Shown piece after piece: positions 7,283 to 59,631 of a stretch of 64,000 nt of DNA. A program made the position numbers and the translations under genes. The notes below the pieces were generated by a model. The model made no database searches. It was given only the letters and a program-made list of their open reading frames with translations, and was not told the DNA's origin. Numbering within the stretch: the first letter of the stretch is position 1; each line of letters begins with the position of its first letter. Source of the stretch: a candidate division WOR-3 bacterium (GTDB taxonomy: Bacteria > SDB-A); the NCBI GenBank assembly GCA_016926475.1, contig JAFGON010000023.1:559-64558 (forward strand), given 5' to 3'.

Positions 7283-7340
7283 TTATCCGGGAACAAGATT
7301 CTTTCAACGCCTTAGATAATTATGTGCAGTGTTGTCATCA
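7272..7340. repeat. copy 1 of a ~66-bp direct repeat (its partner is at 9081-9149)
   Basis: tcaagatgtagttatccgggaacaagattctttcaacgccttagataattatgtgcagtgttgtcat is 1 indel plus 5 mismatches away from the second copy. It lies between convergent gene ends. Confidence 0.7.
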
Positions 7341-8843
7341 CGCTTTTCTGTCAAGCGCAAGGTGGTTGTTTGTCACTTTCCTGAAATGTCTTCCGTATAT
7401 CGCAAGAGTTACAGCAATAGGCATATTTTTAATATCTTTGAAAAAAGTTTTCAATAAAAGTTTCCAGAAATAAAGCTTTTCCGAACCGAAAACGCCGAGG
7501 AGGATAATAGACCTCAAGAATGCCGAAACGTATATGATTTTATTTTTGAAATCGAATCTCACTCCTGTATCTGGTCTATGGTATTCATCGAGAAAAGTGT
7601 TTATTCTCCTGTAGTAAAATTTCGATGAGTAAATTTTCCTTATAACTCTTTCATATCCTTCTCTTAAATTCTTCATTTTCATAACTGGAACTATATTCGT
7701 CGAACAATCAGTGTTGTCCCCTGAAAATTTTGTCTTTATTCTGTTCGCCTTTTTCATCCTTTCATACAAGCGTGTTCCTGGCGGAGCCTGAAGCAAACCG
7801 ACCATCGCGGTTGTAATGCCGCTTTTCTGAATAAAATCTATTATCTGCTGGAATATCATCGCGGTGTCGCTGTCAAAACCGACAATAAATCCTCCCTGAA
7901 CAGTAAAACCCATTTTCTGCAGTTTTTTTATGTTTGATATGATATTCCTGTTGAGGTTCTGAACTTTGTTACACTCGAGAAGACTTGCGCTGTTTGGAGA
8001 TTCTATACCTATAAAAAGCGTGTCAAAACCGGCTTCAAGCATCATCCGCAAAAGTTCATCGTCATCAGAAACGTTTATAGAGACTTCCGTGACCAATTGT
8101 ATCCCTTTCTTCCCTTTTCTCCATTTTGAAATTGAAGGCAAGAGATCCTCTTTTAGTTTTTTCTTGTTGCCGATAAAATTGTCGTCGACAAAAAAAACTC
8201 CACCTCTCCATCCCCTTGAATATAGCTGATCGAGCTCTTCGGTTATCTTATCGGCTTTTTTTAGCCTTGGAATTCTGCCGAACAGAGAAGTTATATTGCA
8301 GAACTCGCAGTTAAAAGGACATCCCCTTGAGTACTGAATAGGCATCATCGCATACTTCCCCATTTTTACCAAAGACCAGAGCGGCACAGGTGTCAAATCT
8401 AGGTCTGCGTGCTTTTTTGTCTCATAAATTTTCTTTTCAGAGCCCTTCTTTAAATCGTCAAGAAATTCCGGAAGTGTGATTTCACCCTCGTTTAGAACAA
8501 AATGATCAACTTTATCGAACAATTCTCTTTCGAGGGTGAACAAAGGTCCACCGACAACCACTTTTTTACCGGCTATTCTGCACTGATCTATCACTTCGGC
8601 AGCGGATTTTTTCTGAATAGACATGCCGCTTATTAAAACCATGTCTGCCCATTCGAGATTTTTTACTGTAAGTTTTTCGATATTCATGTCGACGAGTTTC
8701 TTTTCCCATTCCTCGGGAAGAATTGCGGCGACAGTTAAAAGTCCAAGTGGAGGCATCATAGCTTTTTTGTGGATAAATTTTACGGCGTGTTTAAAACTCC
8801 AAAAAGTATCCGGAATTTCGGGATAGACAAGCAGGACATTCAT
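7338..8843 (-). CDS. B12-binding-domain radical SAM protein (DUF4070-type C-terminus)
   Basis: N-terminal cobalamin-binding-like domain. CPFNCEFC matches the CxxxCxxC radical-SAM motif. Confidence 0.7.
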   Translation of the reverse strand: MNVLLVYPEIPDTFWSFKHAVKFIHKKAMMPPLGLLTVAAILPEEWEKKLVDMNIEKLTVKNLEWADMVLISGMSIQKKSAAEVIDQCRIAGKKVVVGGPLFTLERELFDKVDHFVLNEGEITLPEFLDDLKKGSEKKIYETKKHADLDLTPVPLWSLVKMGKYAMMPIQYSRGCPFNCEFCNITSLFGRIPRLKKADKITEELDQLYSRGWRGGVFFVDDNFIGNKKKLKEDLLPSISKWRKGKKGIQLVTEVSINVSDDDELLRMMLEAGFDTLFIGIESPNSASLLECNKVQNLNRNIISNIKKLQKMGFTVQGGFIVGFDSDTAMIFQQIIDFIQKSGITTAMVGLLQAPPGTRLYERMKKANRIKTKFSGDNTDCSTNIVPVMKMKNLREGYERVIRKIYSSKFYYRRINTFLDEYHRPDTGVRFDFKNKIIYVSAFLRSIILLGVFGSEKLYFWKLLLKTFFKDIKNMPIAVTLAIYGRHFRKVTNNHLALDRKA

Positions 8844-21491: not shown

Positions 21492-21527
21492 AAAAAAAGG
21501 GGGGTGGAAACCCCCCTTTTTACTTTT
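21492..21527. terminator. bidirectional intrinsic terminator (G6-tggaaa-C6 hairpin flanked by A7 and T-rich runs) ending the giant T9SS protein gene
   Basis: aaaaaaaggggggtggaaacccccctttttacttttt. Confidence 0.7.
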
Positions 21528-24500: not shown

Positions 24501-26569
24501 ACGTTGAATGTTCCCGTGTAAATCGGATTTACATTTTCGCTCGGGATCGTGTCCCAATTTCTTCCGTTGCTGTTCCATCCGCTCGGCATTGAAGCGGAGC
24601 CGTAAAACAAATCAACGCCGTCTTCGTTGTAAGCGCTTTCGTACCACATCCAGAAGAAAAGAACCGCTGAATCGGCAAAAGACGTGTTGATATCCGGAGT
24701 TCTGAACCAACTCGCATTTTGATCGTATATTCCGTCGAGGTCTGTCGCGGTGACGTTCACGCCCGACCTGGCCGACAAGGGGCCAACTACGGGTATTCCC
24801 CTCTGCCAGTCACCGGAAAAATAGTATCCGGCGGTGTCCATCTCGAACTCAAACCCGCTGTAATAAACAGTCCTGGCGTGAAGGGCGACGGTCAAATGTT
24901 CAGGAGACCACCCGGAAAGCCTTGTAGTGTCGCCGGAATCTCTGACCCTCGATCTGACGAAATACGTCCCTACCTCGTCGTAAGTTTTCTGTGCTAAGGG
25001 GTAGATATTCCATCCGGAATAGGTCCCGTCTCCCCAGTCGAATTGGTATTCGACCGCTCCAGCGACAACTTCAGAAGTGAAGTTGTATGAATTATAAGTT
25101 ATACAGGTATCCGGACCTGTCGGCGCGGTAGTGGGTCCCGGTATCAGCATAACTGTGTCGAGTCTTATATCGTCTATGTAAAAACCTGCTCTGTTTCCGG
25201 TTGTTCCGTCGTTGTCCCCGAGCCTCCAAAGAAGTCTTAAATCCGTGGCGTATTTGTACGGGGTCAGGTCCACCTGGTAGAGCGTCCAAATAGGATTCGA
25301 ACCTGTCCAGCCGGGCATGGTCGTGCTTGTCCACGTGACGTTGTAGCTGCCTGTGTATGCGGGGACTATGCTCGCGCTCGGCACGGTGTCCCAGTAATAA
25401 CCCGCGTTGTTCAGCCCCCACGTGAAGGAAGCGCTTCCTACCCAGAGGTTGACTCCGTCGTAATCCTGGCGGGAGTCATACCACATCCAGAAATCGAGGA
25501 TGACCGAATCGCACATTGAAAGGTTTACCTCGGGCGTGTTCAGCCAGCTCGCGTTCGTGTAGTAATTTTCGTTTAACCTGGTCGCCCAAACATTTCCCCC
25601 GCTTCGGGCTCTAAACGGACCTGAAAGCGGAATACCCCACTGCCAGTCCCCGAGCTGGTGCAGGCCGACGAAACCTCCGTCGTCGACTTCAAAACCCCAA
25701 TAATAAGCGGTTTTCGGAGTCACCATGACGGCGAGAAGAGGTGGGGACCAGTTTGAAACCAGCGAACTGTCGTTGGCGTCACGGATCCTGGTCTGGACGA
25801 AATACGTTCCGGGGGTGGTCCAGGAGCGGGAAGACGAGGTTGAAATATCCCACGCCGAATAGCCACCGTCCCCCCACGAGAACTGGTATTCGTAATCTCC
25901 TGGTACGACTTCCGAAGTATAGACGTAATTTGTCTCTACGAGTCCGCTGTCAGTCCCTAAAGGTGCCGTCGTTGGACCCGGGATGTTTCCCCCCTGAAAC
26001 GTCATTATTGAGATGTTGTCCAGACCCAGGTAAAAGTCGGGCCTGAGAGGGGAACCTCCCCCTCCCCTGTAGGCAAAACCTAACTGAATGGTGTCATAAC
26101 CCATTGCGTAAGATGAGATGTCGACGGAATCCCATATCGAAAGATCTGTGCCGTAATAATATTTCAACTGCTGCCAGTTCGTCCAAGCACCCGCGGCACA
26201 GCTCCGTATAAGAATTGAAGCGGTGTCGCGGTCTCTGCCAGCCCTGTAATTGTAACCTATGGAATACTTCAGCCATTGAGTGTAGAAAAGAGAGTCCGAA
26301 ATCTTGGGCGAATAGAGAGTGTCCCTGAGGACATAGTTGCCGGCTCTGTTGCTGCATATCCACATGCTCATCGTCAATGGGTCAAGAGGCCTTATGGCTT
26401 CCTGGTCGTAAACCCTCCACTGCCACCTGCGGGGCCAGTTTTGACCCTGTATTCTCTTGGCGGAGTTCCATCCGTCGGCCCAGGGATCTGTCTCAAAATC
26501 CCAGAAATGATAAGCCGACAGAGTGTAAGCTGTAATCAGCAAACTCAAAAAAATTACTATTTTTTTCAT
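21527..26569 (-). CDS. giant (~1680 aa) secreted multidomain protein with a T9SS C-terminal sorting domain, containing three tandem [PKD-like + ~190-aa] modules
   Basis: Signal peptide MKKIVIFLSLLITAYTLSA. Three PKD-like motifs (YEYQFSWGDGGYSAWD, VEYQFDWGDGTYSGWN, LEYQFSWGDSAYSSWS). Each is followed by a GxxxYYxGFE…DWQWGIP…NASW…FWMWY domain. C-terminal …VRWLVYDISGRQV…SAGTYFWMLRTDFG… is a CTD. GGAGG RBS lies inside the pilY1-like stop region. Confidence 0.65.
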   Translation of the reverse strand: MKKIVIFLSLLITAYTLSAYHFWDFETDPWADGWNSAKRIQGQNWPRRWQWRVYDQEAIRPLDPLTMSMWICSNRAGNYVLRDTLYSPKISDSLFYTQWLKYSIGYNYRAGRDRDTASILIRSCAAGAWTNWQQLKYYYGTDLSIWDSVDISSYAMGYDTIQLGFAYRGGGGSPLRPDFYLGLDNISIMTFQGGNIPGPTTAPLGTDSGLVETNYVYTSEVVPGDYEYQFSWGDGGYSAWDISTSSSRSWTTPGTYFVQTRIRDANDSSLVSNWSPPLLAVMVTPKTAYYWGFEVDDGGFVGLHQLGDWQWGIPLSGPFRARSGGNVWATRLNENYYTNASWLNTPEVNLSMCDSVILDFWMWYDSRQDYDGVNLWVGSASFTWGLNNAGYYWDTVPSASIVPAYTGSYNVTWTSTTMPGWTGSNPIWTLYQVDLTPYKYATDLRLLWRLGDNDGTTGNRAGFYIDDIRLDTVMLIPGPTTAPTGPDTCITYNSYNFTSEVVAGAVEYQFDWGDGTYSGWNIYPLAQKTYDEVGTYFVRSRVRDSGDTTRLSGWSPEHLTVALHARTVYYSGFEFEMDTAGYYFSGDWQRGIPVVGPLSARSGVNVTATDLDGIYDQNASWFRTPDINTSFADSAVLFFWMWYESAYNEDGVDLFYGSASMPSGWNSNGRNWDTIPSENVNPIYTGTFNVSWMGATLPGWTGSSSNWTLYSVNLTGIKNYTDLQILWRLSDNNGTTGNGPGFYIDDIRVDTFMRPLIGPLHPPFGPTWGYVSTNYAFLSDSAITGMGTLEYQFSWGDSAYSSWSTDRNAIHQWSAEGLYGIRTRARIQSDTTLIGQWSPPHYIEVGASGYFDPPWTFEPGNQGWKISSNWERKSSSWYSGWEMTSGDNWSMWAIGTGKNYVCDTTFSPSAPVSVDYQYLCWTGCLRKSTSVQGDTAIVMLRTFRNTVWGDWEAVYFYTTNTNPNWFYQEILQLFGADSVQVGVIYTHREGPSYDRFFGIDNVWLLNRPYLEEVVWNFEDQAKWDWTHTVSVNWPNGWNIRDEGTVSSLELDNAGNYSAWIGNTSSHSTPLVDTIKSPAEWNPVDLQYFVWGIGFNNAYDSIKVLMCGLKEGSWTAWQEIKTYYRATTPSFRALDSADVSDSFANASKIEVAFAYYATQNYGACVIDNIYLSSSVDKDAFVGGGDPNIQGVFQPAGSSSIREVVKNNGTQTANFSVRAVVTDINSGSVLMNETRDVTGLSYLDSVIVDFGDVDLVEDHHYIKKIIIEYPGDANPHNDTSIYSVRCVTPSWEPIADMPIAVAGPVSWIDDAGDVNVFGDTLHMKYDATGNVWSVVSSIPYKITDAQGVSATDKVYMLSSDSSLAGKLIIFDKLTGSFQTQDLPNTVNSPVLAFFEGIGGDYIYVIESNLTEKPSCYFFDENSEEFMLASPLPGGFEGGLSVSSREGIALAGGDIYGGNVYFGRVSAASPVVINWSTDYRTPLRNTGKISAGSSGSYMVFAGGQSSGVFSANSYLYENGYGWYQIDNLPSPLSSASITAREAEGSSDTVEVRDFFLVGGRNSSGALSDAYRLVLKTKKTMGMESSSEAIGPSEVFSVRLASSNVFMDEVSIRLSLPGNSSVRWLVYDISGRQVREIETFLPAGTHIVSWDGKDDRGTSLSAGTYFWMLRTDFGSENGKFLHVR

Positions 26570-26580
26570 CTTCCCCTCCA

Positions 26581-29337
26581 TCAGTAAACTTCGTTCCAGT
26601 AGACGTATTTCTTTTTAAATCCTGGACCTGTTATCTCTCTGATTATAGGTCCGGAACTGGTCATCACAATGACCACAGGTCCGTCAGGACCGACAGTGAC
26701 CTGCGGAGAGGAAGGGACTCCAATGTGTCCGAGGTCTATAGCCTCCAAGAGTCTGCCTTCGAGCAGCGACGCGACATACATTCTCGCGTAACCCGCTCCA
26801 ATGTCGCAGGGGCCTGCTTCTGCTGTGTCGGGGGCGAATGTCGTCCAATATACGTTGTTGCTGTAAATGAGAGGAAGAGACGTGACTTTCTCTCCGGGGT
26901 GGGTGTGCCTGTAGTAATACCCGTAATCACCAGGAGGGGTCGCTGCTGTCGTCAACTCGGCCATGTCGGATATTGTCGCCGCCGCGCCGGATGCCGGAGG
27001 CGATTTGAGCATTAGGAAGTAACCGACTTTCGTTGTGTCCATTGGGTTGTCCCTGTTTCCGGAACCCCAGCAATACCAGTGTTCTCCGCTGAAATCTTGA
27101 GCTACAGCGACGGGGAAAAAGCAAGTCATGTCGGCGTCGGCCGGGACTCCCGCGCTCCCGCTGAAAGCTGTATAAACCGACCAATTTGAAGGATTTGTAT
27201 CTGATTCTGTGTCCATTATCAGGAGGTTTCCGCCCAGATCCGGAGCAACCACCATGTCGACGAAGCCGTTTACGTTCATATCCGTCATCGCCAGAGAAGC
27301 CGGCACTCCGTTTCCGTTGGGGTTTTCCCATCCTTTTGCCCATGCGGTGTTTCCGGTCAAAGCGTAAAAAGCGAAGAAATCTCCCGTGTCCGCTACGAAA
27401 GATCCTGAAGTGTCGGGGACGTATCCCCCACCCATGAAAAATCCCCACATGGGAATTGCCGTGTCGTTGCTGACGGGGTCCACATCCACTTTGAACTGAC
27501 CCGCTGTGGGCTGGGACCAGGTGTCTCCAAACCTTTTATAAAGGCCTCCGATGAGAGTTCCGGATATTTCGGTGATCAACTTGGGATAAGAAGAAGTGTC
27601 TGTCGGCGCCGGCACCTCGGTTATATCGAGAATTATGTAGTTGTTGCCGCCTTCTCTCTGCCCCACAATCAAAATTGTTCGCCAGTCGGTCGGGTCTTTC
27701 ACACCGTCTCCGTCCAAGTCGGCCCACAAATCGGCGGCGGTGACCGGTCCGTCTAAAATATAGGTGTGCTGGTTGTCGAGCGCCCAAACCCTGAGTTTGT
27801 TCATCGCGAATTTCGGCACCCAAGCCCAGACTTCATGCCCGGTAGAGGCGTCTATACAGTGAAGCGTACCCGTGTTTGTACCGACGTACACCCTTTTTCT
27901 GCTGTCTCTGTAAGCGTGGTTTTTTCTGTAAACCACGTATGACGGGTCGCCTGTGTAAAATGGGCTCGGGGCGCCTATCATCAGAGGAGCGCTGTGAAAT
28001 ATGTCTCCCATCTTCCATCCAGGAGACGCGTTGCTGTAACCCTCTCTCGTCCTCTGGACGATGAGGTCTTTTTCCCAGGCGGTGCCGACGTTGACTTCCG
28101 AGGGCAGGACATTCAGAAAACTGAAGTCGGATTTGAGTCCAAGCTGATTCGTGTAGAAAATTTTTCTGCTCGCGGAAGGGGTCTGCTGAAGAGATTCTCC
28201 CGCGGTCCAGATTTCAGAACCCAAAAATGTGTCGCCCGTGAAAACGACAGCTCTGAGCTGACCATCCCAAAACCCTCCTCCCTGAGGACGGAAAGTCGCG
28301 TAAACTATCGCCGTGTCGCTTATCATAGTCCTGACAACAGGGACACTCGCCGGTGAGAACGAAAAGTTGTTCTCGAGAATCGACTGGAAAATATCATGCA
28401 GGGATTGAGCGAGCTCATCGGCGGTCTGAGCTATATAGGCGTAACCCTCGCAGTAATGAAAAGAAGGAGGCAGGGCTTGATAGCCCGTCGAGTAGGCGGA
28501 TTTTGGGTTGTACCATCCGTTTGATGACCCCCAACCGCTTCCAATGGGTTGTGGCCATGTCCACGGATTGTGAACGTGTGTGTGGGGGGGGTTGTACATC
28601 ATGTCTGAATAGTTGTATTTATCGAGATTGTCGGTCCCTCCCCAGTATGCCGCCCAGTTCAGTTCGTTTCTTCCTTTTTGTGTTATTCCTGTGCCGAAAC
28701 CGACCATGAAAGCCGGAATATCTCTGTCTTGGTTGCTCACCGAGGCTTCTCGGACAAGCGACCAGCTTCCGAGCCAGTCGTTTGATTCGGTTATCTGGGT
28801 GTAAGACGCGTTTGTTCCATAGCCGTTTGATTCCCCGTCAGTTATATGTATCAGGTAATAACTCCTGCAGTCGAGGTCTGGATGGGTTGAGTCGTATTCG
28901 TGTATCCATTTTGAAGAAAAGTAAATCGCAGGGCCGTTAGGAGTCCAACCTCCATTTGTGGTGTAGTTGATGTGGGACCATATCGTCGAATAGGGCGTCC
29001 CGAAAGTGTCCGCTCTCAAAGAACCCGTCGCCTCCCCGGGCAGATAGATATACGGACCGGGGTTGTACGTTCCCGAAGGGGTGTTATAAAAAAATCCAGT
29101 TGCCAGATCGACGCCGAGAATATCCCTGTCGGAGTCTTCCACCACTCCGTCTTTGTCTGCGTCGAGAAGGCTTTTTATGACCTGCAGAGCCTGGGTTATT
29201 CTCGATCCGGCCATGCTGCCCGACCTGTCGAGAAAAATCATGGCCGCAGGTTCAGCCGCGACGCGGAACAGGACTTCATCGTTGGCGAGCAGCAAAGCGG
29301 GAAAGACAAGCAAGATAAATAAATTTTTCCACTTCAT
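26581..29337 (-). CDS. pilY1: PilY1/PilC-like type IV pilus tip adhesin with an N-terminal von Willebrand A domain
   Basis: Signal peptide. MIDAS motif FLDRSGSMAG plus ITDGES. C-terminal VYVGTNTGTLHCIDASTGHEVWAWVP matches the PilY1 beta-propeller signature. Confidence 0.65.
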   Translation of the reverse strand: MKWKNLFILLVFPALLLANDEVLFRVAAEPAAMIFLDRSGSMAGSRITQALQVIKSLLDADKDGVVEDSDRDILGVDLATGFFYNTPSGTYNPGPYIYLPGEATGSLRADTFGTPYSTIWSHINYTTNGGWTPNGPAIYFSSKWIHEYDSTHPDLDCRSYYLIHITDGESNGYGTNASYTQITESNDWLGSWSLVREASVSNQDRDIPAFMVGFGTGITQKGRNELNWAAYWGGTDNLDKYNYSDMMYNPPHTHVHNPWTWPQPIGSGWGSSNGWYNPKSAYSTGYQALPPSFHYCEGYAYIAQTADELAQSLHDIFQSILENNFSFSPASVPVVRTMISDTAIVYATFRPQGGGFWDGQLRAVVFTGDTFLGSEIWTAGESLQQTPSASRKIFYTNQLGLKSDFSFLNVLPSEVNVGTAWEKDLIVQRTREGYSNASPGWKMGDIFHSAPLMIGAPSPFYTGDPSYVVYRKNHAYRDSRKRVYVGTNTGTLHCIDASTGHEVWAWVPKFAMNKLRVWALDNQHTYILDGPVTAADLWADLDGDGVKDPTDWRTILIVGQREGGNNYIILDITEVPAPTDTSSYPKLITEISGTLIGGLYKRFGDTWSQPTAGQFKVDVDPVSNDTAIPMWGFFMGGGYVPDTSGSFVADTGDFFAFYALTGNTAWAKGWENPNGNGVPASLAMTDMNVNGFVDMVVAPDLGGNLLIMDTESDTNPSNWSVYTAFSGSAGVPADADMTCFFPVAVAQDFSGEHWYCWGSGNRDNPMDTTKVGYFLMLKSPPASGAAATISDMAELTTAATPPGDYGYYYRHTHPGEKVTSLPLIYSNNVYWTTFAPDTAEAGPCDIGAGYARMYVASLLEGRLLEAIDLGHIGVPSSPQVTVGPDGPVVIVMTSSGPIIREITGPGFKKKYVYWNEVY

Positions 29338-48305: not shown

Positions 48306-49697
48306 GTGATAATTATAATTTCAAACCTAATCCAGATAGAAGAATTCAACGGGAATCAAAGTCTTGCTTCTTTCGTAAAAAAGAGTTTGACCCTGCCAAA
48401 TTTCGAATATTTTCTCCGAAAGAAAATGGGAAAGAGCGTATGGGGTTTGAAAAGCAGTTTCACGTTTTATAAAATCAAAAAAGACAAAATTGTCGTCCCT
48501 CGCGGTTTTTTGGACAGACTCCTTTTATTTTTTGAAGAGCACAGCATTGAATATAAAATCGAAGATAAAAGAAGCAGACATCAAAAGGTCATCTTTTCGC
48601 CTGGCATAGAGCTTTTTGAATCACAGAAAACAGCTCTTCGCGATGTATTAAAGAAAGACGGCGGGATTTTAGTAGCCCCTCCTGGGTCTGGAAAAACGGT
48701 TGTCGCTTTAAAAATAATTGAACAAAAATCTTTGCCTTCTCTTGTTTTGGTTCATAGAAGACAGCTCATGGACCAGTGGGCGGACAGAATAGAATCTTTT
48801 TTAAAGATCCCAAAAAGGGAAATAGGTTCGCTTTCTACAAAAAAAATAAAAAAAGGCGAAAAAATTACTCTCGCAACGCTTCAAACTCTTTCAAAAATGC
48901 ATTCCGTTGATATCACAGATCTTTTTGGCACCGTAATTGTCGATGAATGCCACCACATTCCTGCAAAAATGTTTCGAAAGGCAATCGTAAAACTCAATCC
49001 AAGATATATCTATGGACTGACAGCTACTCCAGTCAGAAAAAACCGAGATGAAAAGGCGATTTTCATTTTTATCGGAGATAAACTTCACGATTTGACTCAA
49101 AAAACAATCACAAATACAGGTGGAGATATCTGCATAAAAATCGTCGGGACGGGCTTTTTTGTACCTTTCAACATCAAAACGGGTGAAATTGAAATTTTAA
49201 ACAAAATGCTGATTTTCGACACCCACAGAAACAGAATTATAACTGAAATGGTAATGGGGGAAATATCTAAAAACAGAAAAACGGTTCTTCTAACCGAGCG
49301 CAAAGAACACATAGAGGCATTAAAATACTTTTTTTCAGGAAATTCAGACTTCGTCACAATGACAGGAGATGACTCCAAAAAAGAAAGAGCTTATAAAAGA
49401 GATAAAATTAATACCGGAGATTACCAGCTAATTATGGCCACCGGCCAATATTTCGGTGAAGGCACGGATTTTATTTCTCTGGATTGCCTTTTCCTTGCTT
49501 TTCCAGTTTCCTTTGAAGGGAAACTCTTGCAATACGTGGGCAGAATTCTCCGGGGTGACAGCAAAAAGGTAATTTACGATTTCAGGGACGACAGAGTTGA
49601 ATACTTTGAAAAACAGTATAAAAAAAGGGAACTTTTTTACAAAACATCGCTTTCGAACGTAAACAGGCCCGTAAGTATCGAGTTTTTACGGGCCTGA
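48306..49697 (+). CDS. XPB/ERCC3 (RAD25)-like superfamily-2 DNA helicase; start uncertain (GTG at 48306 without an RBS; alternative ATG at 48426)
   Basis: Walker A GILVAPPGSGKT. DECHH box. GLTATPVRKN motif III. C-terminal helicase domain. Confidence 0.6.
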   Translation: MIIIISNLIQIEEFNGNQSLASFVKKSLTLPNFEYFLRKKMGKSVWGLKSSFTFYKIKKDKIVVPRGFLDRLLLFFEEHSIEYKIEDKRSRHQKVIFSPGIELFESQKTALRDVLKKDGGILVAPPGSGKTVVALKIIEQKSLPSLVLVHRRQLMDQWADRIESFLKIPKREIGSLSTKKIKKGEKITLATLQTLSKMHSVDITDLFGTVIVDECHHIPAKMFRKAIVKLNPRYIYGLTATPVRKNRDEKAIFIFIGDKLHDLTQKTITNTGGDICIKIVGTGFFVPFNIKTGEIEILNKMLIFDTHRNRIITEMVMGEISKNRKTVLLTERKEHIEALKYFFSGNSDFVTMTGDDSKKERAYKRDKINTGDYQLIMATGQYFGEGTDFISLDCLFLAFPVSFEGKLLQYVGRILRGDSKKVIYDFRDDRVEYFEKQYKKRELFYKTSLSNVNRPVSIEFLRA

Positions 49698-52939: not shown

Positions 52940-54220
52940 TCAATCGCAGTACACTACAGGCAGTTCATTCCAATTCGTCGTGTACCTCTTTGACAATTTT
53001 TTTCTTTTCATTTTCCAGGAATTATCAAATCCTGAAGAGGCGAAGCCCACGGTTTCTCTTCCCATTTTTCGGTTTATTTCGTCTATGGTTTTTATTATTT
53101 TATTTTTGGATTGGTCTTCTTCTTCGAAAATCGACTTGCTGATCTCATCCTTTTTGATGATTCCGGTAAAAACAACCCCTGCTTTTTTATATTTGTACCC
53201 ACTCCTGAATATGTTCTCCAAAGCTTTATGAGAATGTTTTATTAGTGAGGGGGTATAGTTCGTCGGGTTTTTAATCCTTACATCTGACCAGTTCGCGTAT
53301 TGTTCTTCGTCCTCGTTGAACCTGTCGGTAGTTATGTAAACAGTCATCGACAACGGGACCGCGTTTTGGCTTCTCAGCTTGACAGCAGCCAAAGTAACGT
53401 ATTGTGAAAGGGCGTTTTTCAACTCTTCAATTTTCTCTACAGTTCTGCCGAAAGATCTTGAACAGGCCATGCCCTTTTTGTCCGATGGCATGTTTTCAAT
53501 GTCAATGCATGGCTCTCCGTTCAGTTCGAGTAAGGTTTTCAATCCAACTACCGTTAAATTTTTCAAAATCCATTCTCTGTCAGCATTTTTTAAATCCAAA
53601 GCTGTAAAAACACCTTTTGAAGCCAGCTTTAAAGATTGCTTTGCTCCGATTCCCCAGACATCTTCGGTTCCAAGGTTTTGGAGAATTTTGTCGATTTTCT
53701 CAAATTTATATATGTCGACAGCACCAGAACCGTTTTTTTTTGCTTCTTTTGTAGCTATTTTCGACAACGTCTTTGTCTCGGCTATTCCAACTGAAACAGG
53801 TATTCCTGTCCATTTCAAAACAGTCTTCTTTATTTTTAATCCCAGGTCTAAAAGCCTTTTTTCTTCAAATCCTTCAAGGAGGACAAAGGCCTCATCTATC
53901 GAATATACTTCAACATCAGATGAAAATTGCCTCAGGGTCTGCATTACCCTTATAGACATGTCTTGGTAAAGTTCGTAGTTGGATGAAAACACTTTCACTG
54001 AGTTCTGTTCTATGAAGTTTTTTATCTTGAAAACCGGAACTCCCATTTTGATTCCCAGCGCTTTTGCCTCTTCAGACCTTGAGACCACACAGCCGTCGTT
54101 GTTTGAGAGGACGACAACTGGCACGCCTTTCAAAGATGGAGCGAAAACCCTCTCGCAGGAGACGTAAAAATTATTGCAGTCCACGAGGGCTATGGGAGGA
54201 TGATACAAAGGGCTTTTCAT
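52940..54220 (-). CDS. umuC: Y-family translesion DNA polymerase (UmuC/DinB-like)
   Basis: [17 protein letters not shown]…[13 protein letters not shown]-terminus typical of UmuC. Confidence 0.75.
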
Positions 54221-54697
54221 TCAAGCCAATGGATGAATCACGTAAGTCACAACGCCCCAGACCTCAAAATTCATTTCAGGTTTTACTTCAATGGGCTTGT
54301 ATTCAGCGTTTTCAGGGACAAGATATATTTTTTCTTTCTTTTTGTGTATCCTCTTGACTGTAAATTCCCCGTCGATTACAGCGATTACAACCCTGTTGTT
54401 GCCTGGTTTTTCAGCCCTGTCGACGATGAGGATGTCCCCTGAATTGATACCCGCGCCTACCATGGAATCGCCCGAGACTTTGATAAAAAAAGTCGCCGAT
54501 GGGTGTTTTATCAGAAATTCGTTTAGGTCGAGTTTGTTTTCGGCGTAATCTTCAGCCGGAGAAGGAAATCCAGCGGATATTTTGACTTCGAAACATGGAA
54601 TTTTTATTTCTGCTTTTTTTTCGAATGAAAACATTTCTGTGACTTTGATCTCTTTTCTCATTGGATTAATTCTATTTGTTTGAGGGTCTAAAAGCAA
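54221..54697 (-). CDS. umuD: S24 peptidase LexA/UmuD-like protein (true start may be an internal Met)
   Basis: Ser nucleophile in VSGDSMVGAGI. Lys in EFTVKRI. Immediately upstream of, and abutting, umuC. Confidence 0.65.
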   Translation of the reverse strand: MLLDPQTNRINPMRKEIKVTEMFSFEKKAEIKIPCFEVKISAGFPSPAEDYAENKLDLNEFLIKHPSATFFIKVSGDSMVGAGINSGDILIVDRAEKPGNNRVVIAVIDGEFTVKRIHKKKEKIYLVPENAEYKPIEVKPEMNFEVWGVVTYVIHPLA

Positions 54698-54730
54698 TTG
54701 AAGGTTGAAAATCTTTTGTCTTAACCCCCT

Positions 54731-55927
54731 CTACATTGTGATTTTGTCGATTATTTTTTCTTTTATTTCTTCAAATGCCATAAATTTTGAAAACTCTTCT
54801 CTGTTTTTGTAAATTTCGGCAAAAGGATAAATTCTTCTTTTAAATAAGGAAATCACCCTGGAGACATAGGCAATAAAAACGTCAGGAAAAGGGGCTTCAA
54901 TTTTCTCCATCTCGATTATGTGCTTTGGGGTTGGAAACAGACTAAAATAAAGAGAGACAAGGTTTCTCAAGAAACCGGATTTTTTTTTGAATCTGCTGAA
55001 AGATGTGTGTACCGTCTGCTGTTTTTTAAGAGAAAAAATCAACGCGTCTTCGAGAGTATTTTCATCAATAGACGCCTTTTGTACAATTTCTGATAACTCT
55101 TCGGGAAGTTCGACTCCAAATAACGCATTGACAGCTTTTGCAACAAGTCCAACTGCCTTTATGGCTTTTGTTTCATGCGCTATTTCTGAAAACTTTTGCC
55201 ACTGGATTTCTTCTTTTTTTAAAAAAAGACCAATATCCAAAAAATGCAGAAGCTTGACTTGGAAAACATGAAGGAAAGCAATATGAAGACACAAATACAG
55301 CAGTAAATGTTCTTTCGACAAAACCTTGCATTTTACGTTTCCGATTTGAACATTTGTTGCGTCTGCCCAGACCTCTTCCATATCCAGCAAAAATGGATTA
55401 TCAGGAGGCAAAAGGTTCCAATGAACTTCGATTTTCAATGGTTTCACGCCGCTGTAGATCTTTTCTGATACAGTATATCCATAGTGATAATGGTACTTTT
55501 CAATCCAGGTAATGTTCCAATTTTCTGGAACCGAGATTTTCTTCATGCTTTTATGAGCCTTTTCAACATGGGCTTTTTTGACCAATATGTCCAAATCTGA
55601 CATGGGCCTCTGTTTGAAAGAGCGGTATATCTCCTGGGCAACATGCGGGCCTTTCAAAACAATGAGGTCTATTCCATCTACGGAAAAAAGTTTTTCAACC
55701 TTTTCCAAAATCGCCAAATAAGCCAGCGAATCCCTCCACGCAGGTGCGTAGCCAGAGGAAAGCGATTCAAAGATTTGGGGGGGGACATCCGCTTTTTCTG
55801 ATTTTAAAACTTCCGAAAGGTACCCCGAAAGAGAGTGGTATTGTGCCTCTTTGGCAACTCTTTTCCACCCCTTTTCATCAATACCAGACGGAAATTTTTT
55901 TTCCTTTGCAAGTGAAAGGATATCCAA
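54731..55927 (-). CDS. uncharacterised nucleotidyltransferase (NTP_transf_5/PF14907-like)
   Basis: GIDLIVLKGPHVAQ…RPMSDLDILV gives the nucleotidyltransferase-fold GS/DxD pattern. 398 aa. Confidence 0.45.
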   Translation of the reverse strand: MDILSLAKEKKFPSGIDEKGWKRVAKEAQYHSLSGYLSEVLKSEKADVPPQIFESLSSGYAPAWRDSLAYLAILEKVEKLFSVDGIDLIVLKGPHVAQEIYRSFKQRPMSDLDILVKKAHVEKAHKSMKKISVPENWNITWIEKYHYHYGYTVSEKIYSGVKPLKIEVHWNLLPPDNPFLLDMEEVWADATNVQIGNVKCKVLSKEHLLLYLCLHIAFLHVFQVKLLHFLDIGLFLKKEEIQWQKFSEIAHETKAIKAVGLVAKAVNALFGVELPEELSEIVQKASIDENTLEDALIFSLKKQQTVHTSFSRFKKKSGFLRNLVSLYFSLFPTPKHIIEMEKIEAPFPDVFIAYVSRVISLFKRRIYPFAEIYKNREEFSKFMAFEEIKEKIIDKITM

Positions 55928-55949
55928 AAACAGGTCTATTGTCTTTCTT

Positions 55950-57743
55950 TTATTTTGCCTGTTCTTGCAGACTTTTTGCGTAAAGCTCGGCGTAAAACCC
56001 TTCTCTTTTTATAAGGTTTTCATGAGAATCCATCTCAACAACAGTGCCTTTGTCGAGAACGTATATGATGTCGGCATGCTTGACGTTTGAAAACTTATGG
56101 CTGATCAGCGCGACTACAGCTTTTTTTGATAGGGCTTTGACCTTTTGTAAAAACAGACGTTCCGTCTCCGGGTCGAGATGGGAAGTCGGCTCGTCAAAAA
56201 TATAGACAGGCGCCCTTTTAAAAAGGCACCTGGCCAAAGCCAGCTTCTGCCATTCGCCAAAACTCAGCTCTTCTCCTCCCTTGAACCATTTCCCCAGCTT
56301 TGTGTTTATGCCTTCGGTCAACTTATCCAAAATATTAACAGCTCCCGCGTCTCTTAGAGACTCTACCACAGACTCGTTTTCCATTAACCTTTCAACGTCT
56401 CCTATGCTTACGTTTTCAGCAAGGGTGAGCTGGTATTTCTGGAAGTCTTGAAACACCAAAGAGACCGAATCGTACCACTTCATGGGTTCAATTCTCTTCA
56501 AATCAATACTGTCGACAAATACGCTGCCCCCGTCCGGGTCGTATAGACGGCACAATATTTTCGCGATTGTCGATTTTCCGGATCCGTTGCTCCCGACAAT
56601 AGCCGTAAATCTGCCCTTTTCAAGCGTCAAGTTCAGGTCATCGAGAGCTTTCAGTTTCGAACCGGGATAGGAAAACACTACTTTTCTTAGAGAGATCTTT
56701 TCAACATTTTCAAATTTCGATTCAACACCAGGGGGCGACGTAATAATTTTTGTTTTTAAACCCAAAAATTCAGCGAAATAAGACAGGAAAAGGCTGTTTT
56801 CATAAAGTCCGACAAACCCTCCAAGCAACCCCTTGAGACTCCCTTGCCCTCTTTGGAAAGCCTGTAAAAACATGACCAGGTTTCCGAGAGAGATCTCCCC
56901 TCTATAGGTTTTAAAAGTCATAAAAACCATGAGCAAAGCTAGGATGGAAGACGAAAATACTTGTGAAGAAAAATCCGCGGCGGATTTTTTTATCTTAATT
57001 GATATTAGTTTTCTTCTGATAGTGTTTCTAATGCTTTGAAATCTATCTCTGAACAACTGGAATGTGCTGAAAATCTTCACTTCTTTCGAGGAACTTTCCG
57101 AAGTCAAAAGATAATTGTAATACCAAGTCTCTCTTTCTTTTTCTGTTATTCTTTTCTGCCACGAGTATATTTTTTTAACGAAATAAAGCTGGACAAAAGT
57201 ACCGGGAATTACGGCGGCAAAAAGAATCAATCCTACTAAACTGTTTACGGAAAATATCAGCACCGCTACCCCTGAAAACGTTAAGAGGTTTTGGAAAATC
57301 GAAAAAAACTGGTTGAGGGTGTTGACTGGTCTGTAGGGGGATTCTCTTTGAGCCCTGTGTAGGGTGTCGTAATAAACAGGATTGTCGTAGTATGCTATGT
57401 CGATTTCAGAGGATTTTTTATGCATAATTTCATAGACTTTGTCGGATGTTTTAAGCGAAAAGTATTCCGAGACAATATCGTTCAAGGAATCCGCTAAAAA
57501 ACTGACGAAGTAGGCGGCTCCCGCCGCGGCGATCAGAGCAATAGACTTTAACATTCCTTGTTCTGGATTAGTCGAAGAAAGACTTGTAGCAACTGAATCT
57601 ACAAAAAGTTTCACGATATACAAAAGCAAAACTGGTATCGCGGAGCGTATCACAGTCAGAATAATTCTGGCGAAAAAAAGTTTTTTTGAAGCGTAAAAAA
57701 CGACCGCTATAGCGTTTTTAAGTCTAGAAAAACTATTTTTCAA
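55950..57743 (-). CDS. ABC exporter, fused 6-TM permease + ATPase (bacteriocin/peptide-exporter-like, no peptidase domain)
   Basis: Walker A GSNGSGKST. Signature LSFGEWQ. Walker B IYIFDEPTSHLD. N-terminal TMD. Confidence 0.7.
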   Translation of the reverse strand: MKNSFSRLKNAIAVVFYASKKLFFARIILTVIRSAIPVLLLYIVKLFVDSVATSLSSTNPEQGMLKSIALIAAAGAAYFVSFLADSLNDIVSEYFSLKTSDKVYEIMHKKSSEIDIAYYDNPVYYDTLHRAQRESPYRPVNTLNQFFSIFQNLLTFSGVAVLIFSVNSLVGLILFAAVIPGTFVQLYFVKKIYSWQKRITEKERETWYYNYLLTSESSSKEVKIFSTFQLFRDRFQSIRNTIRRKLISIKIKKSAADFSSQVFSSSILALLMVFMTFKTYRGEISLGNLVMFLQAFQRGQGSLKGLLGGFVGLYENSLFLSYFAEFLGLKTKIITSPPGVESKFENVEKISLRKVVFSYPGSKLKALDDLNLTLEKGRFTAIVGSNGSGKSTIAKILCRLYDPDGGSVFVDSIDLKRIEPMKWYDSVSLVFQDFQKYQLTLAENVSIGDVERLMENESVVESLRDAGAVNILDKLTEGINTKLGKWFKGGEELSFGEWQKLALARCLFKRAPVYIFDEPTSHLDPETERLFLQKVKALSKKAVVALISHKFSNVKHADIIYVLDKGTVVEMDSHENLIKREGFYAELYAKSLQEQAK

Positions 57744-58534
57744 AAATCGCTCTCTCTGTAACTCGAACCCCCCAAAGCTTCCCTTTCAAACCACTCTCCG
57801 TCATATAATTTCATCAGTTTTGTCAATCCCTCCCAGAGATACACGTCTGTTCCGTCCAAGTTACGCCTTAACCAAAAACCTATTGCCATGCCAACTGTCC
57901 ACTCGCTATAACCGTCTCTTACCTGGTATTCTTCGAGAACGCCTTTATACCTGTCTTCGAGAAACAAAAGAGCGTCAACGCGTCCTAAAACGACTTTTTC
58001 GCGATAAAGTTCAGCTTCTTGTTCGACATTCCTCTCTCTTTCGAGGTACAAAAAGGATTCTGTCATCATCCTGAAAAACCTTTGGAAAACCCTGTGGTAG
58101 ACCTCTCTGTAAGTTTGGTCTAAAAACTCGTCTTCCGGAAGAGGGATCAAATTTTGATAGCCCCAGATTATGATTTCCGGGTTGTAATAACCGAAATCTT
58201 CACTTTTTAAAAGTATTTGTATGCCTGAAATCCTTTCTATTGCACCGATATCCTGATAATGTTTCAGCGTGTACCCGTCCTCCAGTAAAAAAGTAAAGGC
58301 CTCAGCGAGAGATCCGTAATAAAGAATCCCGTTTACTCCGGCGAGAAACATTTGATTTTTATCGCAACCATCAAACATATATTCATACGGCCATGAAAAC
58401 CATTCTTCGTACAACAATTCTAAATTTTCTCTTGAAAGTGAGTTTCCCAGACAGGTAACGGTTGCATTGTCTTTGACGAGCAAACCGCAGGAAAGGATTG
58501 ACAGCGAGACAACCAAAAACACCGACCTTTTCAA
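57740..58534 (-). CDS. lipoprotein of unknown function; its stop overlaps the ABC exporter start by 4 nt
   Basis: Lipobox SILSC. No recognisable domain. Confidence 0.45.
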   Translation of the reverse strand: MKRSVFLVVSLSILSCGLLVKDNATVTCLGNSLSRENLELLYEEWFSWPYEYMFDGCDKNQMFLAGVNGILYYGSLAEAFTFLLEDGYTLKHYQDIGAIERISGIQILLKSEDFGYYNPEIIIWGYQNLIPLPEDEFLDQTYREVYHRVFQRFFRMMTESFLYLERERNVEQEAELYREKVVLGRVDALLFLEDRYKGVLEEYQVRDGYSEWTVGMAIGFWLRRNLDGTDVYLWEGLTKLMKLYDGEWFEREALGGSSYRESDF

Positions 58535-58603
58535 TTTGCCTCCTTTTGTGGACTTGAATGATTATTTTGTATATCATTATTCCAACAATGGCAAGGAGAG
58601 ACG

Positions 58604-59248
58604 ATGAAAAAAGAGATGTTTTTATTGGCTTTGGTTTGTTTTTTTTTCAACGGATGCACCAAAAATACAGACGAGATTGTCACGGCTGCAAAACAAAAAC
58701 CATCCGACAACTACACGTGCTTTGTTCTTTCTTTACCCGACAGCTGCAACTGTCTTAAAAACGGAAAATATATCATGCCCTTGGATCATTCGGAAGTGAC
58801 GGAAGGAGCTTACTCCAGTTTATCTCTTAATTTCAATTCTGTTTTGGAATCAGATCAAACGGTTTATTTCGATTTAATGCTTCCAGCCACCGAGAAATTT
58901 TCTGTTTTTGTCGGAATGTGCACTCCCCTGGGGTGTATCCTGGACTGTGAAAAGCCAGAAAGTTCGTTTTCAATCTCTGAAGACGAATACACGAACCTGA
59001 AAACTTTATACGGCGATCCATTATCTCCTTCTATGACAGTCACCATCGTTAAAGGAGTGGATACGTTGGAAAAGGTTGTTTTCGACAAATTCAGAATTGC
59101 AATAGACTCCTTCTCCGTCGAAAGCACGCTGGTAACTCTCCGTTCCAGCCATGTCGAGCTTTCAAGCTCTTCGGACCCGGAATTGCGTTTGGAGGGCGAG
59201 ATCTACATCTCCGGACAGGAACCCGCACAGACAATGGTAGAGCAGTGA
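58604..59248 (+). CDS. lipoprotein of unknown function
   Basis: MKKEMFLLALVCFFFNGC lipobox. RBS AAGGAGAG. Confidence 0.5.
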   Translation: MKKEMFLLALVCFFFNGCTKNTDEIVTAAKQKPSDNYTCFVLSLPDSCNCLKNGKYIMPLDHSEVTEGAYSSLSLNFNSVLESDQTVYFDLMLPATEKFSVFVGMCTPLGCILDCEKPESSFSISEDEYTNLKTLYGDPLSPSMTVTIVKGVDTLEKVVFDKFRIAIDSFSVESTLVTLRSSHVELSSSSDPELRLEGEIYISGQEPAQTMVEQ

Positions 59249-59631
59249 ACATGCGGTTAATGCGTTTTCTGCTTCTGCTTTTGACTTTTAGCTGTTCGGT
59301 AAAAAACAGCACGGTCTTTGACCAGTCTTTTAACCGAGACACTGTTTCCCTGTGTTTCAGACAAAAATTTTCTATCGTTCTTCCATCAAACCCTACAACG
59401 GGATACAAATGGGGGATAGACTCCTCAAAAAGCGGATTTTTTTCACTGGAAAGCGCACTCTTCGTGCAGAATAACAGTGGTGTTCTAGGTTCAGGGGGCA
59501 GAGAAATTTTCTTTTTCCAGGCGCCGGAAGAAAATTTATCCAGGCTATCAATGGTTTACAAGCGCGACTGGGAGGAAAAACCGGGGATTGACTCTTTTGT
59601 GCTTTTCTTTAAACTGCAAACGGTTTTTTAG
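59245..59631 (+). CDS. chagasin-family (MEROPS I42) cysteine-peptidase inhibitor, secreted/lipoprotein
   Basis: Signal peptide plus the hallmark L2 motif NPTTGYKW. VLGSGG (L4-like) and RDW (L6-like) motifs at chagasin-like spacing. Confidence 0.55.
   Translation: MNMRLMRFLLLLLTFSCSVKNSTVFDQSFNRDTVSLCFRQKFSIVLPSNPTTGYKWGIDSSKSGFFSLESALFVQNNSGVLGSGGREIFFFQAPEENLSRLSMVYKRDWEEKPGIDSFVLFFKLQTVF

What the first reader, a model, noticed from the sequence alone, without database searches (positions are those of the whole stretch)
54221..58534. Operon joining a lipoprotein, an ABC exporter and an NTP_transf_5 nucleotidyltransferase with umuD-umuC
Five minus-strand genes are tightly linked. The lipoprotein and ABC exporter overlap by 4 nt. 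The next gaps are 22 nt and 33 nt, and umuD abuts umuC. PF14907-type nucleotidyltransferases and half-size ABC exporters commonly accompany RiPP and other peptide-export clusters, but no precursor or maturase is visible here. Coupling such an export module to an error-prone polymerase V-like cassette is not an arrangement I recognise. It could be a degenerate RiPP locus, or an SOS-controlled export function.
Basis: partly seen in the sequence, partly recalled or inferred. Interest (0 to 1): 0.55.

Follow-up and report, generated by a model that had tools for sequence, protein, structure and literature searches.

The report
Orphan peptide-export genes beside umuDC
Five same-strand genes in an uncultured WOR-3 bacterium are most likely two ordinary units that ended up adjacent in one narrow lineage: a leftover peptide-export/tailoring gene pair with a lipoprotein, and a standard error-prone DNA polymerase cassette that appears to have its own promoter.

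Summary
On the minus strand lie a lipoprotein-like gene (57740-58534), a half-size ABC exporter (55950-57743), a PF14907 nucleotidyltransferase (54731-55927), umuD (54221-54661) and umuC (52940-54220, outside the stated range). The functional coupling is not supported. The arrangement occurs in five related WOR-3 lineages, but these share the whole ~16 kb neighbourhood, so it is inherited synteny. The two nearest outgroups keep umuDC plus the downstream amidohydrolase, yet have an unrelated divergent gene upstream. None of 80 other UmuC loci carries the nucleotidyltransferase, and none of 80 nucleotidyltransferase loci carries umuDC. A -35/17 nt/-10 promoter-like element sits just before umuD in all five lineages. 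It ends 5-7 nt before a start codon that lacks a usable Shine-Dalgarno sequence, which suggests a leaderless umuDC transcript. Here no precursor or maturase exists in 64 kb. All five genes are under purifying selection (dN/dS 0.08-0.24), so the module is orphaned, not decaying. No known LexA box was found. The substrate is unknown and read-through is not excluded. Low interest.

The parts
57740..58534 (-). lp264: secreted, probably lipidated all-alpha protein of unknown function; first gene of the upstream unit
   Evidence: ORF. No Pfam, NCBIfam or PADLOC hit. Ten-member family. AF2 model pLDDT 74.6, all helical, no Foldseek PDB match. Distant homologues stand alone, not next to ABC/NT5/umuDC.
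55950..57743 (-). Half-size ABC exporter (N-terminal transmembrane domain plus C-terminal ATPase), no C39 peptidase domain
   Evidence: PF00664 + PF00005. Best NCBIfam hit is MsbA at 251 bits, far below its 602 cutoff. Alignments to peptidase-containing exporter models start after their peptidase region. It is 30-43% identical to the ABC genes that precede PF14907 genes in RiPP clusters.
54731..55927 (-). PF14907 (NTP_transf_5) Pol-beta-fold nucleotidyltransferase
   Evidence: Pfam E 9e-48. K92-G93, R107, D111-x-D113 and H169 are invariant and E167 nearly invariant in 31 homologues. AF2 pLDDT 85.4. Weak fold matches to MenT1, TM1012, LnuA and ANT(2'')-Ia.
54669..54697 (-). Promoter-like element TTGCTT-17 nt-TAGAAT, ending 7 nt before the umuD ATG
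   Evidence: Read. The orthologous position in L002, L178, L006 and L177 reads TTGACC-17-TAAAAT, ending 5 nt before the start codon. Hexamers and spacing are conserved; the spacer sequence is not.
54221..54661 (-). umuD (146 aa from ATG 54661; the mechanical ORF extends to TTG 54697)
   Evidence: PF00717 and NF007621 at 171 bits, above the 110 cutoff. The Ala-Gly cleavage site (SAGFPSPAEDY), the SGDSM serine and the FTVKR lysine are visible in the translation. Start supported by orthologues.
52940..54220 (-). umuC, Y-family polymerase, abutting umuD
   Evidence: IMS + IMS_C + DUF4113. NF002955 (UmuC) scores 409 bits, just under its 431 cutoff.
58535..58603 (.). 69-nt divergent control region between lp214 (+) and lp264 (-), containing an invariant 18-mer at 58563-58580 and both Shine-Dalgarno sequences
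   Evidence: Alignments A2, A5 and A9. The 18-mer ATAATGATATACAAAATA is unique in the window and present once at the same place in L002, L006-8, L177 and L178.

Best explanation
Two independent units lie head-to-tail. Unit 1 is lp264-ABC-NT5. It is probably transcribed from the conserved bidirectional control region at 58535-58603, shared with the divergent lp214 / Inhibitor_I42 pair (inferred). Its ABC-PF14907 core belongs to a widespread two-gene module that normally closes RiPP clusters (SynChlorMet radical-SAM cassettes and lasso clusters). There the exporter presumably pumps out the finished peptide, and the nucleotidyltransferase tailors it; the one studied lasso example, PsmN, is needed to add hexose to a phospho-serine. 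In this WOR-3 clade the pair has lost, or never had, its precursor and maturases, has gained a lineage-specific lipoprotein gene upstream, and is kept by purifying selection. Its most likely role is therefore export, with or without nucleotidyl-type modification, of a substrate not encoded locally. Candidates are a peptide made elsewhere in the genome, or a foreign RiPP in an immunity-like role. The substrate is inferred, not shown. Unit 2 is a canonical umuDC cassette (self-cleaving UmuD plus Y-family UmuC). It is driven by its own sigma-70-like promoter, whose -10 box ends 5-7 nt before a start codon without a usable Shine-Dalgarno sequence, so the mRNA would be leaderless (inferred). The two units became neighbours through a rearrangement in the ancestor of one WOR-3 clade and have stayed so by synteny.
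For: The gene families are confirmed. The five-gene order recurs in L002, L006-8, L177 and L178/179, always inside the same block from pstSCAB-phoU to amidohydrolase and TetR; pst proteins are 77-83% identical to the window. Outgroups L180 (UmuC 58% identical) and L181 (54%) keep umuD-umuC plus the convergent amidohydrolase. Upstream of umuD they have a divergent unrelated gene and a 122-193 nt intergenic region. None of 80 UmuC loci has NT5 or lp264, and none of 80 NT5 loci has umuD/C. An ABC homologue lies immediately upstream on the same strand in 23 of 45 NT5 loci with enough sequence. At least 14 of those 23 have ScmE/F-like radical-SAM genes, and L124 matches ScmC/D/E/F above the NCBIfam cutoffs. 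L005, L133 and L170 are lasso-type. A promoter-like site scoring 10 of 12 lies directly before umuD in L002 and L006. The same hexamers and 17-nt spacing occur in L177, L178 and, more weakly, the window, with unconserved spacers. dN/dS is 0.08-0.24 for all five genes in two close genome pairs. The 64-kb window has no Scm or PqqD homologue, no lasso cyclase and no LexA paralogue.
Against: All five genes are co-directional with gaps of 69 nt or less. No intrinsic terminator-like site lies between NT5 and umuD, so read-through from unit 1 into umuDC is possible. The window's own -35 hexamer is weak (TTGCTT, 3 of 6). Promoter calls are consensus matches, not transcript data. Leaderless translation has not been documented for WOR-3. 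Only contigs were examined, so a partner RiPP cluster or a lexA gene elsewhere in the genome was not checked. The outgroups could in principle have lost the module rather than the clade gaining it. Either way umuDC functions without it.
Confidence: 0.72

Rival explanations
1. A genuine five-gene operon. Transcription from the lp264 promoter, or from a damage-responsive one, runs through umuDC, so that export/nucleotidylation and error-prone polymerase are co-expressed and functionally linked.
For: Same strand, gaps of -4, 22, 69 and 0 nt, and no terminator-like site at the NT5-umuD junction. The order is kept in five lineages.
Against: Those five lineages share the entire neighbourhood, so the order is explained by descent. 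The nearest outgroups have umuDC alone behind a divergent gene. There is no co-occurrence in 160 unrelated loci. A promoter-like element is conserved just before umuD, and umuD lacks a usable Shine-Dalgarno sequence, so internal translation from a read-through mRNA would be poor. No known LexA motif lies upstream of lp264 or umuD.
Confidence: 0.13
2. A decaying remnant of a RiPP cluster: ABC and NT5 are functionless leftovers on their way to loss.
For: No precursor, PqqD, radical-SAM enzyme, lasso cyclase or HprK-like kinase occurs in the window or in the flanks of the four related loci. NT5 is the fastest-evolving gene of the block, 36-40% identical between the window and L002/L006 against 62-69% for umuDC.
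Against: The reading frames are intact in all five lineages. dN/dS is 0.08-0.13 for ABC and 0.18-0.24 for NT5. The catalytic D-x-D and other family-invariant residues are retained.
Confidence: 0.05
3. Unit 1 has nothing to do with peptides. lp264 is the functional partner, and the MsbA-like exporter with the nucleotidyltransferase handles a lipid, glycan or lipoprotein-linked envelope component.
For: The best NCBIfam similarity of the exporter is to MsbA. lp264 is translationally coupled to the ABC gene in the window (4-nt overlap) and always directly upstream in the clade. The divergent partners lp214 and I42 are also envelope lipoprotein-like.
Against: The MsbA score is far below the cutoff (251 against 602). 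The closest ABC relatives found (30-43% identical) are the ones paired with PF14907 in RiPP clusters. lp264 homologues elsewhere are not next to ABC genes, and no ABC-NT5 locus elsewhere has lp264.
Confidence: 0.1

Closest known systems
umuDC (DNA polymerase V) operon of Escherichia coli type
   Same: UmuD has an S24 self-cleavage domain with an Ala-Gly site and a Ser/Lys dyad. UmuC carries IMS, IMS_C and the DUF4113 C-terminal domain. The genes abut and have the same order.
   Different: No CTGT-N8-ACAG box or any other described LexA box lies upstream. The apparent promoter ends 5-7 nt before the start codon, implying a leaderless mRNA. UmuC scores just under the NCBIfam UmuC cutoff (409 against 431).
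SynChlorMet (SCM) radical-SAM peptide-maturation cassette (NCBIfam TIGR04248-TIGR04251: ScmD, ScmC, ScmE, ScmF) followed by an ABC exporter and a PF14907 gene
   Same: The window's ABC and NT5 are homologous to the last two genes of these clusters, in the same order and on the same strand (ABC 36-41% and NT5 23-29% identical).
   Different: The window has no ScmC, ScmD, ScmE or ScmF and no Cys/Gly-rich precursor. A lineage-specific lipoprotein gene takes the upstream position.
Lasso-peptide clusters with a PsmN-type nucleotidyltransferase and PsmD ABC exporter (pseudomycoidin, PMC6993621)
   Same: PF14907 genes next to ABC exporters occur in lasso-type loci with Asn_synthase, HprK-like kinase, PqqD and Transglut_core3 (L005, L133, L170). 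PsmN is described as an uncharacterised nucleotidyltransferase with a D-x-D motif and remote ANT(2'') similarity. My NT5 model hits the same PDB entries (5cfs, 4xje).
   Different: I could not check that PsmN itself is PF14907. The window has no kinase, cyclase, protease or precursor. PsmN activity (hexose on a phospho-serine) has been shown only in vivo (PMC6993621, PMC11912497).
Small-molecule Pol-beta-fold nucleotidyltransferases (ANT(2'')-Ia, LnuA) and MenT-type toxins
   Same: They share the minimal nucleotidyltransferase core fold (Foldseek E 1e-3 to 6e-2, target TM 0.5-0.65).
   Different: Sequence identity is only 8-17%. NT5 has a large extra helical C-terminal half. There is no sequence-level PDB relative and no PADLOC hit.

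Membership tests
PF14907 NTP_transf_5 | Score above Pfam gathering threshold over the full-length model | tested here: met
   163.4 bits against a cutoff of 31.2; model positions 2-249 of 249.
PF14907 NTP_transf_5 | Pol-beta-type catalytic motif (G near the N-terminal end of the core, D-x-D, third acidic residue) and nucleotidyltransferase fold | tested here: met
   K92-G93 and D111-x-D113 are invariant and E167 nearly invariant in 31 homologues. AF2 pLDDT 85.4 with nucleotidyltransferase fold hits.
Half-size ABC exporter (type IV fold) | ABC_membrane domain followed by ABC_tran in one polypeptide | tested here: met
   PF00664 at residues 145-296 and PF00005 at residues 367-521.
Peptidase-containing bacteriocin ABC exporter (C39 type) | N-terminal C39 peptidase domain | tested here: not met
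   No peptidase domain in Pfam. Alignments to the NHLM_micro_ABC1 and cleave_ABC models begin after their peptidase regions.
MsbA lipid A flippase | NCBIfam equivalog score at or above the cutoff | tested here: not met
   TIGR02203 scores 250.8 bits against a cutoff of 602.
UmuD (Pol V autoproteolytic subunit) | NF007621 above its cutoff; Ala/Cys-Gly cleavage site; Ser-Lys dyad | tested here: met
   171 bits against a cutoff of 110. SAG|FPSPAEDY, SGDSM and FTVKR are present in the translation.
UmuC (Pol V catalytic subunit) | Y-family IMS and IMS_C domains plus the DUF4113 C-terminal domain; NF002955 cutoff | tested here: inconclusive
   All three Pfam domains are present. NF002955 scores 409.3 bits against a cutoff of 431. 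Pairing with a bona fide umuD supports the assignment.
SynChlorMet RiPP cassette | ScmC, ScmD (PqqD-like), ScmE and ScmF radical-SAM/SPASM genes and a precursor | tested here: not met
   tblastn with the L124 Scm proteins finds nothing in the window, L002, L006, L177 or L178 apart from ABC and NT5. There is no small intergenic ORF.
Lasso-peptide cluster | Asn-synthase-like cyclase, transglutaminase-like protease, PqqD-like RRE, precursor | tested here: not met
   No such domains in the 30 ORFs of at least 200 aa upstream of position 48000 that were scanned, nor in the 9 ORFs scanned around the finding. No credible PqqD hit (best tblastn E 0.06, 28 residues). Short B2-type ORFs elsewhere in the window were not scanned with Pfam, and one ORF of at least 200 aa (48306-49697, +) was not scanned at all.
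SOS (LexA) regulon | A LexA-binding motif in the promoter region | tested here: inconclusive
   No exact match to 13 described LexA motifs upstream of umuD or lp264 in the window, L002 or L006. The WOR-3 motif is unknown, and no lexA gene was available to derive it.
Single operon of five genes | One promoter, no internal promoter or terminator, co-transcription | not testable with these tools
   Same strand, short gaps and no terminator-like site at the junction, but there is a conserved internal promoter-like element before umuD. Transcript data are needed.
Bacterial lipoprotein (lp264) | Signal peptide ending in a lipobox with an invariant Cys | tested here: inconclusive
   MKRSVFLVVSLSILSC16 was read by eye. 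A Cys is retained in the close relative P0038 and in P0046 but absent in six other family members, which look like plain secreted proteins. No dedicated predictor was available.

The most novel reading that the evidence does not exclude
The juxtaposition is functional in this clade. Read-through from the lp264 promoter, plus a leaderless start at umuD, would give two expression modes for Pol V. Alternatively, the Pol-beta-fold PF14907 enzyme, orphaned from peptide biosynthesis, has been recruited to act with UmuD'2C or on nucleotides or DNA during damage tolerance, with the exporter removing a by-product.
Probability: 0.07. Interest if true: 0.55.

Novelty: new member of a known kind. Interest (0 to 1): 0.2.

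Why it matters
If the best explanation holds, this is ordinary. It shows how conserved local synteny within a narrow lineage can mimic an exotic operon. Three modest by-products remain. The ABC-PF14907 pair is documented as a portable two-gene tail shared by SynChlorMet and lasso RiPP clusters, and it can persist under selection without them, which hints at immunity-like or in-trans roles. A likely precursor family for SynChlorMet cassettes was seen. There is also a candidate case of a leaderless umuDC with no recognisable LexA box in the poorly studied WOR-3 phylum.

Tried and rejected
- The first genome-contig scan, with UmuC as a single protein, confirmed no relatives.
- The second scan, with an alignment, returned only loci at 50% identity or less from other phyla, so GTDB representatives gave no close WOR-3 relative.
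- Exact-sequence look-up of NT5 gave only a 1.6-kb Logan contig.
- NT5: no PDB relative by profile search.
- Literature searches for PF14907, NTP_transf_5 and SynChlorMet gave nothing useful.
- A scan with 13 known LexA motifs gave only one-mismatch, chance-level matches. Inspection by eye for a shared palindrome between the -35 and -10 hexamers found none.
- No tRNA or Rfam family in the window, so nothing suggests an integration site or riboswitch.
- GC content of the five genes (0.39-0.42) is only slightly below the window average of about 0.44, and similar values occur elsewhere in the window, so composition gives no signal of recent transfer.
- The idea that UmuD might be a RiPP leader peptidase, because S24/S26-like peptidases precede ABC-NT5 in L100 and L124, was rejected. 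The window protein passes the UmuD subfamily model and is coupled to umuC.

Full report
**What is there**

Five minus-strand ORFs occupy 52940-58534:
- lp264, 57740-58534
- a 597-aa ABC exporter, 55950-57743
- a 398-aa protein, 54731-55927 (NT5)
- umuD, 54221-54697 as the mechanical ORF
- umuC, 52940-54220

The 398-aa protein matches PF14907 at E 9e-48 over the full model. The exporter has ABC_membrane plus ABC_tran. UmuD matches Peptidase_S24 and the UmuD subfamily model NF007621 at 171 bits (cutoff 110). UmuC has IMS, IMS_C and DUF4113.

The UmuD translation shows the Ala-Gly cleavage site (SAGFPSPAEDY), the SGDSM serine and the FTVKR lysine. lp264 matches no family, but it begins with a signal peptide and has Cys16 in a lipobox-like context.

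Two corrections apply. The stated range leaves out umuC. And umuD almost certainly starts at ATG 54661: the protein is then 146 aa, as in the L002, L006 and L178 orthologues, and the conserved N-terminus K-E-[IV]-K-[VI]-T begins there. This makes the NT5-umuD gap 69 nt rather than 33. No intergenic gap can hold a precursor ORF.

**Source and close relatives**

The proteins are identical to entries from a candidate division WOR-3 MAG. The same five-gene order occurs in four further lineages:
- L002 (GCA_016929715.1)
- L006-L008 (Logan assemblies)
- L177 (GCA_016934535.1)
- L178/L179

In every case it lies inside the same larger block: pstSCAB-phoU, Inhibitor_I42 and lp214 on the opposite strand, then the five genes, then a convergent amidohydrolase. 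TetR and a 249-252 aa gene follow wherever the contig extends that far.

Window-to-L002 protein identities are 77-83% for pst, 62-69% for umuDC, 53% for ABC and lp264, and 38% for NT5. Conservation of the five-gene order is therefore what descent alone predicts. It is not evidence of functional linkage.

**Where the linkage stops**

The next-closest UmuC proteins are in L180 (58% identical) and L181 (54%, GCA_049975185.1). Both loci still have umuD-umuC followed by the convergent 455-460 aa amidohydrolase, so they are syntenic relatives. Upstream of umuD, however, sits a divergently transcribed unrelated gene; in L181 it is a molybdopterin oxidoreductase. The intergenic space is 122-193 nt. 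There umuDC must have its own promoter.

Two wider surveys agree:
- Eighty UmuC loci from GTDB representatives across many phyla contain no NT5 and no lp264. Of these, 58 have at least 3.5 kb upstream of umuC.
- Eighty metagenomic PF14907 loci contain no umuD or umuC.
- Distant lp264 homologues (36-40% identical) stand alone in unrelated contexts.

**What the ABC-NT5 pair is elsewhere**

Of the 80 PF14907 loci, 45 have at least 1.9 kb of upstream sequence. In 23 of these, an ABC homologue (30-43% identical to the window's) lies immediately upstream on the same strand.

Neighbour clustering and family scans show that at least 14 of these 23 pairs sit beside ScmE/ScmF-like radical-SAM genes. In L124 the layout is: a small Cys/Gly-rich ORF, ScmD (PqqD-like, TIGR04248), ScmE and ScmF (radical-SAM/SPASM, TIGR04250 and TIGR04251), an S26-like peptidase fused to ScmC (TIGR04249), then ABC and PF14907. 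This is the NCBIfam 'SynChlorMet cassette'. Others (L005, L133, L170) are lasso-type, with Asn_synthase, an HprK-like kinase, PqqD and Transglut_core3.

In the window, tblastn with the Scm proteins finds nothing except ABC and NT5. Pfam scans of 39 ORFs across the window show core metabolism only: fab genes, ETF, an RND efflux system and pst. They show no lasso cyclase and no LexA.

**Is the module decaying?**

No. In two close genome pairs (L006/L177 and L002/L178) dN/dS values are:

| Gene | dN/dS |
|---|---|
| ABC | 0.08-0.13 |
| lp264 | 0.12-0.14 |
| NT5 | 0.18-0.24 |
| umuD | 0.09 |
| umuC | 0.13 |

NT5 keeps the residues that are invariant (K92-G93, R107, D111-x-D113, H169) or nearly invariant (E167) across 31 homologues. 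Its AF2 model (pLDDT 85.4) has a Pol-beta-type nucleotidyltransferase core. Fold matches are weak and go to MenT1, TM1012, LnuA and ANT(2'')-Ia.

The only studied enzyme of this kind in RiPP clusters that I could find is PsmN of the pseudomycoidin lasso cluster. It is required in vivo for adding hexose to a phospho-serine and was modelled on the same ANT(2'') structures (PMC6993621, PMC9266682, PMC11912497). I could not verify that PsmN is PF14907.

**Regulatory signals**

Directly before umuD, the promoter scan reports TTGACC-17 nt-TAAAAT (10 of 12). This is the single best site in 5.9 kb of L002 and one of three tied best sites in L006. L177 and L178 have the same hexamers and spacing. The window has TTGCTT-17-TAGAAT at 54697-54669.

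Across the five lineages the hexamers and the 17-nt spacing are conserved while the spacer sequence is not. That pattern fits a promoter rather than a palindromic operator. The -10 box ends 5 nt before the start codon in four lineages and 7 nt before it in the window. No usable Shine-Dalgarno sequence precedes umuD, whereas lp264 and lp214 both have AGGAG(G). The simplest reading is a leaderless umuDC mRNA. This is an inference.

No exact instance of 13 described LexA motifs occurs upstream of umuD or lp264 in the three loci tested (motif list partly from PMC8565304). The WOR-3 motif is unknown.

The 69-nt divergent region between lp214 and lp264 contains an invariant 18-mer, ATAATGATATACAAAATA (58563-58580). 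It is unique in the window and identical in all related loci, even though synonymous sites between the window and those loci are saturated. It probably holds overlapping face-to-face -10 elements, an operator, or both, for unit 1 and the lp214-I42 pair.

**Mechanism and rivals**

Best explanation (about 0.72): two autonomous units were juxtaposed in one WOR-3 clade.
- Unit 1 is lp264-ABC-NT5, an orphaned RiPP-type export/tailoring pair plus a lineage-specific lipoprotein. It is expressed from the conserved divergent region and kept by selection for a substrate not encoded locally.
- Unit 2 is a canonical umuDC with its own promoter.

Rivals:
- A true five-gene operon (about 0.13). It cannot be excluded, because no terminator separates NT5 and umuD.
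- A decaying remnant (about 0.05). dN/dS argues against it.
- An envelope/lipid role centred on lp264 and an MsbA-like exporter (about 0.10). The MsbA score is far below the cutoff, and the nearest ABC relatives are the RiPP-cluster ones.

PADLOC gives no defence-system assignment.

**Verdict**

The RiPP-type origin of the ABC-PF14907 pair and the absence of a precursor or maturase hold up. The proposed coupling to Pol V is best explained as lineage-specific synteny. This is a new member of known kinds and of low interest. The side observations (the portable ABC-PF14907 tail, candidate SynChlorMet precursors, a possibly leaderless umuDC without a known LexA box, and an unclassified secreted all-alpha family) are modest leads.

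Noticed in passing
window 58563-58580 (within 58535-58603): An invariant 18-mer, ATAATGATATACAAAATA, lies in the divergent lp214/lp264 control region. It is identical in five lineages whose synonymous sites are saturated relative to the window, and it is unique in the window. It contains TGATATACA and its reverse complement TGTATATCA, which could be face-to-face extended -10 boxes or an operator.
   Followed up: partly
window 58604-59631 (+): A 214-aa protein with no family match overlaps by 4 nt with a chagasin-type peptidase inhibitor (PF09394, Inhibitor_I42). Both have lipobox-like N-termini. The pair is divergent from lp264 and conserved in the clade.
   Followed up: no
window 57740-58534; proteins P0037-P0046: lp264 belongs to a small family of secreted all-alpha proteins. 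It has strongly conserved motifs (WFxxPYEYMFD, YNPxIIRWGYQNLIP, VFQRFFRLMTESYLYL, MAIGFWLRRxxDGT) and no Pfam, NCBIfam or PDB match. Members outside the clade sit in unrelated contexts, for example next to an FHA-domain gene in L015.
   Followed up: partly
L124:1505-1852, L127:1269-1664, L134:1549-1755, L140:5948-6142, L162:651-950: Small ORFs close to the ScmD/ScmE genes of the SynChlorMet cassettes share a leader, K(P)KYEAPVVVPLGEMAKGSGSC, followed by Cys/Gly/Thr-rich repeats. They are probably the cassette's precursor peptides.
   Followed up: partly
L124:4589-6100; L100:5537-6034: In SynChlorMet-type loci, ScmC is fused to, or preceded by, an S26/S24-like signal-peptidase domain directly upstream of the ABC-PF14907 pair. 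The ScmC portion also shows weak similarity to an HprK-related kinase, echoing the kinase-plus-nucleotidyltransferase pairing of lasso clusters.
   Followed up: no
window 21527-29337 (-): This stretch has higher GC (about 0.52 against a window mean of about 0.44). It carries two very large ORFs: 1684 aa with a C-terminal FlgD_ig domain, and 918 aa with a PilY1-like beta-propeller.
   Followed up: no
L181:4131-4323 and L180:1108-1229: The outgroup umuD upstream regions contain short perfect palindromes just downstream of promoter-like hexamers: TTTGTACAAA in L181 and CTCTT-ACAA-AAGAG in L180. These could be lineage-specific operators. The window clade has no counterpart.
   Followed up: no
window 7338-8843 (-): A B12-binding radical-SAM protein with DUF4070 is the only radical-SAM gene detected in the window. 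It lies 46 kb from the finding and is not SPASM/RiPP-type by Pfam.
   Followed up: no
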